Source of the DNA: a virus
Taxonomy: Duplodnaviria; Heunggongvirae; Uroviricota; Caudoviricetes
Virus record (IMG/VR): IMGVR_UViG_2690316325_000023
DNA: 19,876 nucleotides
Strand: one strand, 5' to 3'
The position numbers and the translations under genes were made by a program. The notes beneath the pieces were generated by a model that was not told the DNA's origin, did not search any database, and saw nothing but the letters and a program-made list of their open reading frames with translations. Positions 18,961-19,876 of the stretch are shown piece by piece. Each line of letters begins with the position of its first letter. The stretch's first letter is position 1.

Positions 18961-18994
18961 GTCGCTTTTCCTTATGTTGATTAATTAATCGTTT

Positions 18995-19087
18995 ACGGGA
19001 TTCTGAAATCCCGTTTTTGCCTGTTTTATGCGCGCTTCATATATCGCGGCGCGTTTTTTGCTCATTTACGGGATTTGTGAATCCCGT
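18995..19087. promoter_or_regulatory. Two copies of a 20-bp palindromic operator-like site (ACGGGATT-N4-AATCCCGT), 73 bp apart, upstream of parM
   Basis: Palindromes at about 18995-19014 and 19068-19087, each embedded in a ~37-bp direct repeat (tttacgggatt...aatcccgttt.tg.ctgtttt). The first is 35-55 bp upstream of the parM ATG; the second lies in the last codons of the upstream ORF. Confidence 0.45.
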
Positions 19088-19876
19088 TTCTGTCTGTTTT
19101 TTGTTTCCAATGGTCAGGCCACCCCGCAGCAGGTCTGCTTTGCGGCGGGCGCGTTCAGTGGTTTCACTGATTCTCTGTGCGTGCTCTGCGTCGCGGATGG
19201 CGCGCAGCATGTCAGAAAGCACGGTAACGGGTGTTTTCATGGTGTTCTGGTCTTGCTGAAGTGTGGATGCCAGGCGTGCGGCGGCTTCGGGGTCTGATGC
19301 CCCCAGCTGTTCCAGATAGCTGGCGACCGGGTTATAGCGGATCTCCGTGCTGCTTACGCCGTGGTTACGGCTCAGGCGCTGCCAGAGCTGCGTGATCCGG
19401 CTGTCCGGTCGGGTATCCGGTTTGCGTACAATTTCAAATCCCTGCGGTGCAATGATGCTGCCGTCAACGTACAGACTGCCGCCCCGTAACAGGTGCTGCA
19501 TCTGCTGTTCACCGATATGCAGGCCGAGAGATTCAGCAGACTCCCGCCATTCTTTAGCGAGTAATTCGTGGTTATCAGGCAAAGGCCGCTGCTGTTTGCG
19601 GCTCTGTGTCCAGCTCTGCATTTCATCACTGCTGTTTTTTGCCTGTTTGTCACGAAGCGAACGCATCAGCGCCCGGCGTTCGTGCCGTTTCAGTGAGCGC
19701 ATCCATTCGTTCACTTCAACGCCGTCAGGGAGCTGCGGCCACGGTGCTGGCCGTTCTTCCGGCTGTTCTGTCCCGTTGTTGTCCGTTTCCTGTACACGGG
19801 GACAGTTATTGCCACGAGTCCAAGGTGTCAACGACGGATGAAAAGTGATCCACTTATATCTCCACCAACGGCCCAA
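19037..19876 (-). CDS. Hypothetical protein, 5'-truncated by the window edge (at least 279 aa)
   Basis: Longest frame in this GC-rich segment, same orientation as parMR, running off the window end. Charged Arg/Gln/Glu-rich sequence; no family recognised. It could be the C-terminus of a replication or other right-arm phage protein, or part of the cargo. Confidence 0.45.
   Translation of the reverse strand: MGRWWRYKWITFHPSLTPWTRGNNCPRVQETDNNGTEQPEERPAPWPQLPDGVEVNEWMRSLKRHERRALMRSLRDKQAKNSSDEMQSWTQSRKQQRPLPDNHELLAKEWRESAESLGLHIGEQQMQHLLRGGSLYVDGSIIAPQGFEIVRKPDTRPDSRITQLWQRLSRNHGVSSTEIRYNPVASYLEQLGASDPEAAARLASTLQQDQNTMKTPVTVLSDMLRAIRDAEHAQRISETTERARRKADLLRGGLTIGNKKQTETGFTNPVNEQKTRRDI

What the first reader, a model, noticed from the sequence alone, without database searches (positions are those of the whole stretch)
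18991..19105. Duplicated palindromic operator (ACGGGATT-N4-AATCCCGT), not the iteron array expected of a classical parC
R1-type parC centromeres are arrays of short direct repeats bound cooperatively by ParR. Here there are only two sites, each a near-perfect 8-4-8 palindrome, with one overlapping the likely parM promoter and one inside the 3' end of the upstream ORF. This looks more like a dimeric repressor operator pair than a centromere, so the real centromere may lie elsewhere (for example the 22-bp repeats downstream of parR) or the cassette is regulated by a different protein.
Basis: seen in the sequence. Interest (0 to 1): 0.5.

Follow-up and report, generated by a model that had tools for sequence, protein, structure and literature searches.

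The report
Two-palindrome parC of prophage ParMR cassette
The two 20-bp palindromes are real, conserved and always travel with a plasmid-type partition gene pair (parM-parR) carried by P2-like prophages, so they are most likely the binding sites of the cassette's own ParR protein (operator and centromere in one), an unusual but not revolutionary layout of a known system.

Summary
Two perfect ACGGGATT-N4-AATCCCGT palindromes lie at 18995-19014 and 19068-19087. There are no others in the window or in the complete phage P88 genome. They sit inside two 42-nt direct repeats 73 bp apart, just upstream of parM (18001-18960, minus strand) and parR (17685-17996, minus strand).

The locus is cargo in the gpA-to-portal hotspot of a P88-like (Xuanwuvirus) P2-family prophage. 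It occurs in 1372 of 5426 complete E. coli genomes.

Comparative evidence links the palindromes to the cassette:
- Both palindromes occur in 88 of 89 related loci.
- The GGGATT/AATCCC arms are 24/24 identical in a Hafnia-type lineage where the rest of the region is 65% identical.
- The mobile cassette begins at the outer edge of the distal repeat.
- A prophage with the same gpA but different cargo lacks both palindromes.

The repeats downstream of parR, proposed as an alternative centromere, are not conserved.

There is no 11-bp iteron array, so this is not an R1-type parC. In type II systems, however, operator and centromere are the same DNA. The best reading is a compact, split, palindromic parC bound by the ribbon-helix-helix protein ParR. 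Binding, promoter position and centromere activity are inferred, not shown. The finding is a new variant of a known kind and of modest interest.

The parts
18995..19014 (.). Proximal palindrome ACGGGATT-CTGA-AATCCCGT. Its centre is about 45 nt upstream of the parM ATG. Proposed ParR binding site.
   Evidence: Exact match. Present in all 89 related loci examined, including the single-site deletion variant L047. The arms GGGATT/AATCCC are nearly invariant, while the 4-nt centre and the outermost positions vary.
19068..19087 (.). Distal palindrome ACGGGATT-TGTG-AATCCCGT. It lies inside the last codons of gpA (coding ...ETGFTNPV...). Proposed ParR binding site.
   Evidence: Exact match. Many relatives carry ACGGGACT (an imperfect arm). 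It is kept in the Hafnia-type lineage L016/L017.
18989..19030 (.). Proximal 42-nt repeat block: the palindrome plus an A/T-rich flank (CGTTTTTGCCTGTTTTATG on the + strand).
   Evidence: the repeat finder family D1.
19062..19103 (.). Distal 42-nt repeat block. Its outer edge (about 19101-19103) is the upstream boundary of the mobile parMR cassette.
   Evidence: the repeat finder D1. Homology with L019/L088, which have a different upstream gene, starts at AAAAACAGACAGAAACGGGA. Homology with L020 (same gpA, other cargo) ends at about 19125-19137.
19031..19061 (.). Spacer between the two blocks. It contains the gpA stop codon (19037-19039) and a GC-rich short inverted repeat. No convincing promoter was found here.
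   Evidence: Sequence. Promoter scans.
18001..18960 (-). parM, an actin-like segregation ATPase of 319 aa.
   Evidence: Pfam StbA_N 6.9e-82 and ParM_N 6.2e-69. R1 ParM structure 1mwk, E=1.3e-92. Nucleotide-binding motifs align with R1 ParM, and dN/dS is 0.027/0.65 against the Hafnia-type lineage.
17685..17996 (-). parR, a 103-aa adaptor/repressor. It has an N-terminal ParR/StbB DNA-binding region and a conserved C-terminal NIRALFPE tail.
   Evidence: Pfam Plasmid_stab_B 9.8e-24. It aligns with R1 StbB/ParR and four other plasmid ParRs at both ends. The N-terminus MTTPTRRISFYLKP is invariant in 80 of 80 loci. The linker is hypervariable.
18969..18973 (-). Shine-Dalgarno-like AAGGA, 8-12 nt upstream of the parM ATG.
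   Evidence: Read from the sequence. Conserved in all aligned loci.
19037..19825 (-). 3' part of the P2-type replication endonuclease gene A (context, not part of the cassette). Its last ~23 codons are read-through into the parC block. It is interrupted at 19825/19826 by an IS end.
   Evidence: Annotations of P88 and phage 520873. Junction alignment. IS end.

Best explanation
The two palindromes are the cognate DNA sites (parC) of the ParR protein encoded about 1 kb downstream in the same cassette.

ParR is a ribbon-helix-helix protein of the R1 ParR/StbB family. The proposed mechanism is inferred and has four steps:
1. Each 20-bp palindrome is occupied by two ParR dimers head-to-head, one per GGGATT/AATCCC arm. 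The arm centres are 12 bp apart, about one helical turn.
2. The two sites are 73 bp apart, about 7.0 turns, so they face the same side of the helix. The two complexes can therefore join into one small nucleoprotein complex with the intervening DNA looped or bent, as in the split R1 parC.
3. This complex represses parMR transcription. The proximal site is centred about 45 nt upstream of the parM start codon.
4. The complex presents the conserved C-terminal ParR tails (NIRALFPE) to the ends of ParM filaments. It thereby acts as the centromere of any circular copy of the phage genome.

Shown here: the sites exist, are non-random, are conserved far beyond their surroundings, and are inherited as one unit with parM-parR. 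parM is under strong purifying selection, and ParR keeps both its DNA-binding N-terminus and its ParM-binding tail.

Inferred: ParR binding, stoichiometry, repression, and centromere activity.
For: - Sites are non-random: 2 exact sites against 0.08 expected, and the only 2 in the complete P88 genome.
- Position matches every characterised type II locus, with parC directly upstream of parM then parR.
- Conservation: 88 of 89 related loci keep both sites. Spacing is 73 bp in 82 of the 83 loci where both sites fitted the search pattern, and 72 bp in the other one.
- Positions 3-6, 8 and 13-17 are invariant among those 83 loci, while the 4-nt centre varies freely.
- Between the window and the Hafnia-type lineage, the 24 arm positions are 24/24 identical and the rest of the 200-nt region is 64.6% identical (naive P about 3e-5). 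parM dS is 0.65.
- Module boundaries: loci with a different upstream gene (L019, L088) become homologous at the outer edge of the distal 42-nt block. A prophage with the same gpA but AAA-ATPase/S8-peptidase cargo (L020) lacks both palindromes.
- The ParR N-terminal segment MTTPTRRISFYLKP, aligned to the R1 ParR N-terminus, is invariant in 80 of 80 loci and in variants down to 43% overall identity. This fits an unchanged DNA target.
- Changes within the arms are all one-sided with no compensatory pairs. The wobble-compatible strand differs between the two sites, which argues for duplex-DNA recognition rather than an RNA hairpin.
- Precedents: the split R1 parC has the promoter between two repeat sets and serves as both operator and centromere (PMC2241845, PMC5016525). 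pB171 ParR uses only two repeats (PMC9426499). C. botulinum has a palindromic parC bound by ParR (PMC12270681).
Against: - No binding data exist for this ParR.
- A review statement says all characterised ParRs bind direct repeats (PMC9426499), so inverted half-sites would be atypical for the family.
- Only four half-sites are present, against ten iterons in R1. It is unclear whether so few ParR tails can cap a ParM filament.
- No acceptable sigma-70 promoter was found in or between the sites. The autoregulation step therefore lacks its target, and parMR may simply be read through from gene A.
- No protein-DNA covariation could be obtained, because the ParR N-terminus never varies.
- The host element is an integrating prophage: 1532 of 1534 places are chromosomal. 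A centromere has no obvious job there.
- The AlphaFold model of ParR was too poor (pLDDT 53) to confirm the fold.
Confidence: 0.68

Rival explanations
1. The sites are a pure autoregulatory operator pair. ParR, or ParR together with ParM, uses the palindromes only to control expression. The cassette no longer segregates DNA, or never did in this prophage setting, and has been repurposed, for example as a cytoskeletal or anti-plasmid/anti-phage function of the hotspot cargo.
For: There are only two sites and no iteron array. The cassette sits in the P2 gpA-gpQ hotspot, which mostly carries defence cargo (PMC9122126; L020). It is almost always chromosomal. Chromosomal ParMR systems with non-segregation roles have been reported (bioRxiv 10.1101/2025.06.27.661541, listed; only its abstract was seen).
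Against: The ParR C-terminal ParM-binding motif and the ParM ATPase motifs are conserved, and parM is under strong purifying selection, as expected for a working ParM-ParR-DNA machine. The fixed spacing of an integral number of helical turns and the 42-nt blocks resemble split centromeres. No promoter has been identified for the operator to control.
Confidence: 0.17
2. The palindromes act as RNA or DNA hairpins. Either they are tandem intrinsic terminators or insulators on the + strand that stop antisense transcription from running into gene A, or they are stabilising stem-loops in the gene A/parM mRNA.
For: The terminator scan flags both on the + strand: an 8-bp stem with a 4-nt loop, followed by TTTTTGCCTG and TTCTGTCTGT. 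Predicted hairpins have free energies of -10 to -11 kcal/mol on either strand.
Against: The two hairpins share identical arm sequences, and that sequence, not just the pairing, is conserved across lineages. No compensatory double change appears in any variant. Frequent variants break pairs on one strand at the distal site and on the other strand at the proximal site. On the mRNA strand there is no U-tract. The distal copy would terminate inside gene A. Rfam gives no hit. This role could coexist with protein binding.
Confidence: 0.07
3. The sites bind another protein, either a phage backbone regulator (C, Cox, Ogr, gpA) or a host factor, or they form part of the P2-type replication origin.
For: The sites lie at or within the end of gene A, and P2-family origins lie inside gene A (the author's own knowledge, not tested here).
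Against: A prophage with the same gpA but other cargo has no such palindromes (L020). The sites follow parMR into a different upstream context (L019/L088). There are only two copies in the whole P88 genome, both at parM.
Confidence: 0.05
4. The two sites are a functionless remnant of a local 73-bp duplication.
For: The two blocks are direct repeats. One locus (L047) has collapsed them to a single copy.
Against: Arm-specific conservation holds at dS of about 0.65. Spacing is constant in 82 of 83 loci. The cassette occurs in about a quarter of complete E. coli genomes.
Confidence: 0.03

Closest known systems
parC-ParR-ParM of plasmid R1/NR1 (type II partition; stbA/stbB)
   Same: - Gene order is repeats, then parM, then parR.
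- ParM is homologous over its full length (about 46% identity to an IncFII StbA; E=1.3e-92 to 1mwk).
- ParR belongs to the same Pfam family (PF10784) and has an alignable N-terminus and C-terminal tail.
- The DNA sites are split into two blocks separated by an integral number of helical turns: 94 bp in R1 and 73 bp here.
- The parM coding strand is A-rich.
   Different: - R1 has 10 direct 11-bp iterons (AAAcAaACCCA), five on each side of a 39-bp promoter core (PMC2241845). Here each block has one 20-bp palindrome and no internal periodicity.
- A weight matrix built from the R1 iterons does not score the half-sites.
- This ParR lacks about 15-45 residues of the middle region found in plasmid ParRs.
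- No promoter is recognisable between the blocks.
- The host replicon is an integrating P2-like prophage.
par1 (ParMR) of plasmid pB171
   Same: It is a type II system whose ParR is reported to bind only two short repeats upstream of parM (PMC9426499, citing Ringgaard et al. 2007). A two-site parC is therefore not unprecedented.
   Different: The pB171 repeats are described as 10-bp direct repeats, not palindromes. The pB171 ParR structure sequence was not detectably similar to this ParR (phmmer against PDB, E up to 1, no hit).
pSK41 ParR with its centromere of 20-bp repeats
   Same: The repeat unit length is 20 bp. ParR binds as dimer-of-dimers units that build a superhelical segrosome (PMC5016525).
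   Different: The pSK41 repeats are contiguous tandem copies. The system is Gram-positive and not detectably related in sequence.
Chromosomal cParCMR of Clostridium botulinum (Cb-cParC)
   Same: Its parC consists of palindromic repeats that are shifted by the cognate ParR in EMSA, and it sits on a chromosome rather than a plasmid (PMC12270681).
   Different: It has three palindromic repeats. The proteins are unrelated at the sequence level, and the genomic position differs.
Ribbon-helix-helix repressor operators (Arc, Mnt, CopG, MetJ)
   Same: These operators use inverted half-sites about one helical turn apart, bound by a tetramer (dimer of dimers). This rests on the author's general knowledge and was not tested here.
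   Different: Those proteins are pure repressors with no motor-binding tail and no second distant site.

Membership tests
Type II (ParMRC) partition cassette | Actin-like ATPase ParM | tested here: met
   Pfam StbA_N 6.9e-82 and ParM_N 6.2e-69. R1 ParM structures match at E=1.3e-92 over residues 2-316. The DDGSTNIK, DLGGTTLD and GGGAE motifs align with R1 ParM.
Type II (ParMRC) partition cassette | Small ParR adaptor encoded directly downstream of parM, with an N-terminal DNA-binding (RHH) part and a conserved C-terminal ParM-binding tail | tested here: met
   Pfam PF10784 9.8e-24. The alignment with R1 StbB and four other plasmid ParRs shows a shared N-terminus (RRxxxF) and C-terminal N-[IA]-x-x-[LMF]-F motif. 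The RHH fold itself was not confirmed, because the AF2 model had pLDDT 53 and no PDB sequence hit was found.
Type II (ParMRC) partition cassette | Repeated cis site (parC) adjacent to the operon, normally upstream of parM | tested here: met
   Two 42-nt repeats, each with a 20-bp palindrome, lie 35-143 nt upstream of the parM ATG. They are co-inherited with parMR.
Type II (ParMRC) partition cassette | ParR binds parC; the ParR-parC complex stabilises ParM filaments; the cassette stabilises a plasmid in cis | not testable with these tools
   This needs EMSA or footprinting, polymerisation assays and plasmid-loss assays.
R1-type parC | Array of ten 11-bp direct iterons (two sets of five) | tested here: not met
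   There are only two repeat units. No 10-11-nt autocorrelation is seen (lag 11 = 0.32 against a background of about 0.29; lag 73 = 0.59). The R1 iteron matrix does not pick out the half-sites. For comparison, the tool recovers the R1 array with its 11-nt register in L006.
R1-type parC | Repeat sets flank the parMR promoter, so ParR binding autoregulates | tested here: inconclusive
   The two-block layout is present, but no sigma-70 match of at least 9 of 12 was found. The best candidate is 7 of 12 (AAAACA-16-CAGAAT, with its -10 in the centre of the proximal palindrome). There is no terminator between gene A and parM on the coding strand, so read-through is possible.
Intrinsic (Rho-independent) terminator | GC-rich stem-loop followed by a U-tract on the transcribed strand, with pairing maintained in evolution | tested here: not met
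   A pattern match occurs only on the + strand, which is antisense to all local genes. There are no compensatory changes, and common variants break pairs. No U-tract exists on the mRNA strand.
P2-family replication origin (gpA nick site inside gene A) | Travels with gene A | tested here: not met
   L020 has the same gpA (homologous up to about 19137) but lacks the palindromes.

The most novel reading that the evidence does not exclude
An R1-family ParR reads inverted rather than direct repeats and builds a working centromere from just two 20-bp palindromes, about four ParR dimers. An integrating P2-like phage uses this minimal ParMRC machine to partition its unintegrated, excised or replicating circular genome, giving it a facultative phage-plasmid or carrier state. 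Alternatively, the machine acts on the host chromosome at the prophage site.
Probability: 0.25. Interest if true: 0.55.

Novelty: new variant of a known kind. Interest (0 to 1): 0.3.

Why it matters
Roughly a quarter of complete E. coli genomes, including O157:H7 strains, carry this cassette in a P2-like prophage (PMC9122126 notes the same frequency among P2-like phages). Nobody appears to have defined its cis site or its purpose.

Pinning the cis element to two short palindromes within a 115-bp segment (18989-19103) has three practical consequences:
- It gives a precise, easily mutated target for asking whether an integrating phage really uses an actin-like segregation machine.
- It allows a test of how few ParR sites suffice to cap a ParM filament.
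- It allows a test of whether R1-family ParR proteins can read inverted repeats, contrary to the current generalisation that they read direct repeats.

If the sites turn out to be ordinary ParR operators, the finding is routine annotation of parC.

Tried and rejected
1. Hidden iterons. Searches for degenerate half-sites, autocorrelation and an R1-iteron weight matrix found none. Only A/C-rich flanks scored moderately (ranks 4, 92 and 154 of 39,732), which is probably a composition effect.

2. Centromere downstream of parR. The 21-nt tandem repeat is rare and usually single-copy, and the DNA after the parR stop is highly mosaic. Rejected.

3. Protein-DNA covariation. The ParR N-terminus is invariant in 80 of 80 loci. 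The two ParR sequence classes (A and B) occur with every site variant. The rare loci that carry the same change in both palindromes (L088, L097) have an unchanged ParR N-terminal domain (residues 1-62). No signal was obtainable.

4. Structure route. The AlphaFold2 model of ParR built from a 12-sequence alignment gave pLDDT 53 and pTM 0.27, so no fold search was run. phmmer of ParR against PDB sequences gave no hit.

5. Promoter. Neither the standard scan nor a relaxed scan of four lineages gave a conserved, convincing sigma-70 promoter.

6. Close gpA relatives lacking parMR in the phage collection. None exist there: all 14 records with this gpA 3' end also carry parM. The needed contrast came from E. 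coli genomes instead.

7. Rfam. There is no family hit at the palindromes.

8. Literature. No paper describing this parC or a tested function of the P88/CP-933T parMR was found. Only Rousset et al. 2022 remark that about a quarter of P2-like phages carry a putative partition system.

9. The genome-contig scan with ParM returned only 3 near-identical loci and added little.
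Full report
**1. What is in the sequence**

The pattern ACGGGATT-N4-AATCCCGT, allowing up to 3 mismatches, occurs exactly twice in the window. The sites are 18995-19014 and 19068-19087, both with zero mismatches. Chance expectation is 0.08, and 0 of 200 shuffles gave two matches.

Both sites are perfect 8-4-8 palindromes. They are embedded in a 42-nt direct repeat (18989-19030 and 19062-19103) that is 81% identical with a 73-nt spacing.

No additional half-sites with up to 2 mismatches lie within 18900-19200. 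The region shows no 10-11-nt periodicity, and the only autocorrelation peak is at lag 73.

**2. Context**

On the minus strand, a 319-aa ORF (18001-18960) is a ParM. It matches Pfam StbA_N at 6.9e-82 and ParM_N at 6.2e-69, and R1 ParM structures at E=1.3e-92.

The 103-aa ORF four bases downstream (17685-17996) matches Pfam Plasmid_stab_B (ParR/StbB) at 9.8e-24.

The ORF upstream (19037-19876, running off the window) is the C-terminal part of a P2-type replication endonuclease, gpA. Terminase and portal genes lie at 13746-16543.

The DNA is 96-99% identical to Xuanwuvirus (P88-like, Peduoviridae) phages. parMR sits between gene A and the portal gene, which is the known P2 cargo hotspot. Rousset et al. 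[quoted passage not shown]

In agreement, 1372 of 5426 complete E. coli genomes carry this segment, and 1532 of 1534 places are chromosomal.

**3. The ParR protein**

An alignment with R1-type StbB and four other plasmid ParRs shows two conserved ends:
- N-terminus: RRISFYLKP aligns with R1 RRTIAFKLNP, followed by LDS..P..R....R.A.LAGLAL.
- C-terminus: NIRALFPE aligns with R1 NAMKLIN and with NIKNLFPDDE in other plasmid ParRs.

In R1 the C-terminal tail is the part that binds ParM (PMC5016525). The prophage protein is shorter in the middle.

Across prophage variants down to 43% overall identity, the first ~30 residues and the tail are invariant or nearly so, while the linker is hypervariable. 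MTTPTRRISFYLKP is identical in 80 of 80 IMG/VR loci.

parM is under strong purifying selection. dN is 0.027 and dS is 0.65 between the window and a Hafnia-type lineage.

An AlphaFold2 model of ParR was too uncertain to use (pLDDT 53). ParR has no detectable sequence relative among PDB chains.

**4. Comparative evidence that the palindromes are functional and belong to parMR**

I collected 89 related loci: 80 IMG/VR loci, plus loci from plasmid records, genomes and metagenomes.

*Presence and spacing.* Both sites are present in 88 of the 89 loci. One locus (L047) has collapsed the two repeats into one. The spacing is 73 bp in 82 of the 83 loci that fit the strict pattern.

*Pattern of variation.* Among those 83 loci, positions 3-6, 8 and 13-17 of the 20-mer are invariant. 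The four central positions and the outermost positions vary.

*Conservation against background.* In the Hafnia-type lineage (L016/L017) the 24 arm positions (GGGATT/AATCCC, twice) are 24/24 identical. The remaining 178 aligned positions of the upstream region are 64.6% identical, giving a naive P of about 3e-5.

*Module boundaries.* These are decisive.
- In L019 and L088 a different gene precedes the cassette. Homology with the window begins at ...AAAAACAGACAGAAACGGGA, which is the outer edge of the distal 42-nt block at about 19101-19103.
- In L020 the same gpA is followed by an AAA ATPase and an S8 peptidase instead of parMR. Homology with the window ends at about 19125-19137, and no palindrome is present.
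- The last ~23 codons of gpA in this window (…GNKKQTETGFTNPVNEQKTRRDI) are therefore read-through into cassette DNA.
- Single-base indels in the A-run at about 19100-19106 shift that frame in several loci. The constraint on the distal site is thus on the DNA, not on the protein.

*Downstream edge.* Homology between phage records ends at the parR stop codon. The 40 nt after the stop fall into 32 different sequences among 81 loci.

The 21-mer occurs in only about 9 loci, and as two copies only here and in L021. It is not a conserved part of the system.

*Whole-genome check.* The complete P88 genome has no further copy of the palindrome.

**5. Alternatives examined**

*RNA or DNA hairpin.* The scan flags both palindromes as terminator-like on the + strand. 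However:
- That strand is antisense to every local gene.
- The two stems share the same sequence.
- No variant shows a compensatory double change.
- Frequent variants are wobble-compatible on the + strand at the distal site but on the minus strand at the proximal site.
- There is no U-tract on the mRNA strand.
- Rfam finds nothing.

*Replication origin or gpA site.* This is excluded by L020, which has the same gpA but no palindromes.

*R1-like iterons.* A matrix built from the ten R1 iterons recovered from an IncFII plasmid (L006) does not score the half-sites.

*Diversity among close plasmid relatives.* The closest plasmid cassettes have ParM proteins about 46-52% identical. They show varied layouts:
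- R1 has 11-nt iterons in two sets 94 bp apart.
- IncL/M has 10-nt iterons with another copy 73 bp away.
- An IncK2/Z plasmid has 20-25-nt units containing TTGCAT/ATGCAA in both orientations.

parC architecture is already known to differ widely between plasmids (PMC9426499).

**6. Mechanism proposed**

*Shown.* A conserved cis element of two identical palindromes at a fixed spacing of an integral number of helical turns is inherited as a unit with a selected parM and a parR that keeps both functional ends.

*Inferred.* ParR dimers occupy each arm, with arm centres 12 bp apart, giving a dimer of dimers per palindrome. This would resemble RHH repressors and the pSK41 20-bp unit. The two complexes lie on the same DNA face (73 bp is about 7 turns) and cooperate. 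Together they repress transcription entering parM and display ParR tails to ParM filament ends.

In R1 the same dual role is established for the iterons flanking the promoter (PMC2241845, PMC5016525). 'Operator' and 'centromere' are therefore not alternatives.

*Weak points.*
- No convincing promoter was found. The best candidate is 7 of 12, with a -10-like CAGAAT/AAAAAT/GAAAAT in the centre of the proximal palindrome.
- parMR may also be read through from gene A, since no terminator lies between them on the coding strand.
- Four half-sites are few compared with R1's ten iterons. pB171 ParR, however, is reported to use two repeats (PMC9426499).
- Why an integrating prophage keeps a centromere remains unknown.

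**7. Comparison and novelty**

The locus is a member of the type II ParMRC class by its proteins, gene order and the presence of an upstream repeated site. It fails the defining feature of an R1-type parC, the 11-bp direct iteron array.

Palindromic parC repeats bound by a ParR have one published precedent, in an unrelated clostridial chromosomal system (PMC12270681). A 2022 paper still summarises that all characterised ParRs bind direct repeats (PMC9426499).

The presence of the cassette in P2-like phages is already known (PMC9122126). I found no description of its cis site.

I therefore rate it a new variant of a known kind, with modest interest (0.3). The most novel reading still open is a minimal two-palindrome centromere that an integrating phage uses for an episomal phase. 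I give that a probability of about 0.25.

**8. Verdict**

The suggestion that the centromere lies elsewhere, or that another protein regulates the cassette, is contradicted by the comparative data. Confidence that these are ParR sites acting as the cassette's parC is about 0.68.

Noticed in passing
window 19826-19876: The last 51 nt of the window do not belong to gpA. They match, at 100% identity, sequences found in Mu-like and other phage records next to an IS21-family IstB-like ATP-binding gene. This suggests an IS end inserted into gene A about 790 nt before its stop codon, so this prophage copy is probably replication-defective.
   Followed up: partly
window 17628-17669: There is an exact tandem duplication of a 21-mer (TCTCTATAAACGTGAGCATTT) just downstream of parR. 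Among about 100 related loci only about 9 carry the 21-mer, and only this window and L021 carry two copies. It belongs to a variable cargo segment, not to the parMR cassette.
   Followed up: yes
L047 (IMG/VR), about 160 nt upstream of parM: This is a natural allele in which the two 42-nt repeats have recombined. The 73 bp between them is deleted, leaving a single palindrome and a fused gpA tail. It would serve as a ready-made one-site control for experiments.
   Followed up: partly
L088 and L097 (IMG/VR), parC region: Both palindromes of one locus carry a change at the same position: G3 to A in both sites of L088, and position 15 changed in both sites of L097. The ParR N-terminal domain (residues 1-62) is unchanged in both loci. 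This suggests gene conversion between the two repeats rather than co-evolution with ParR.
   Followed up: partly
window 19037-19106; L023, L042, L044, L087: The last ~23 codons of gpA are encoded by cassette DNA (parC). Single-base length changes in the A-run at about 19100-19106 put that tail in a different frame in several loci, so the gpA C-terminal tail is not under protein-level constraint.
   Followed up: partly
L020 (E. coli MMC-J-0050), locus 407-3777: The same P88-type gpA is followed by an AAA-family ATPase and an S8-family peptidase instead of parMR. This is alternative cargo in the same hotspot and is probably a defence system.
   Followed up: no
window 17429-17458 and 17321-17401: A perfect 12-bp-stem hairpin (ACGCCCCAATAG...CTATTGGGGCGT) gives weak, sub-threshold Rfam hits to ctRNA and sar antisense RNAs and is probably just a terminator. 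A 13-nt perfect inverted repeat with a 55-nt spacer lies nearby. Two 10-of-12 promoter-like sites (17332-17360 on the + strand, 17535-17508 on the minus strand) lie in the same variable cargo segment.
   Followed up: no
window 17030-17299 (minus strand): An 89-aa ORF with a C-x-x-C-containing cysteine pattern lies between the cargo region and the portal side. It has no Pfam hit better than E=0.06, and its function is unknown.
   Followed up: no
L008 (IncL/M plasmid) 1066-1178; L006 (IncFII, R1-type) 1041-1194: The IncL/M parC has its 10-nt iterons plus a further copy 73 bp away, the same spacing as here. The R1 iteron sets are 94 bp apart. Both distances are close to an integral number of helical turns.
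   Followed up: no
E. coli genomes: Some genomes carry two or three copies of this parC-parM segment in different prophages. Whether identical centromeres on one chromosome interact is unknown.
   Followed up: no
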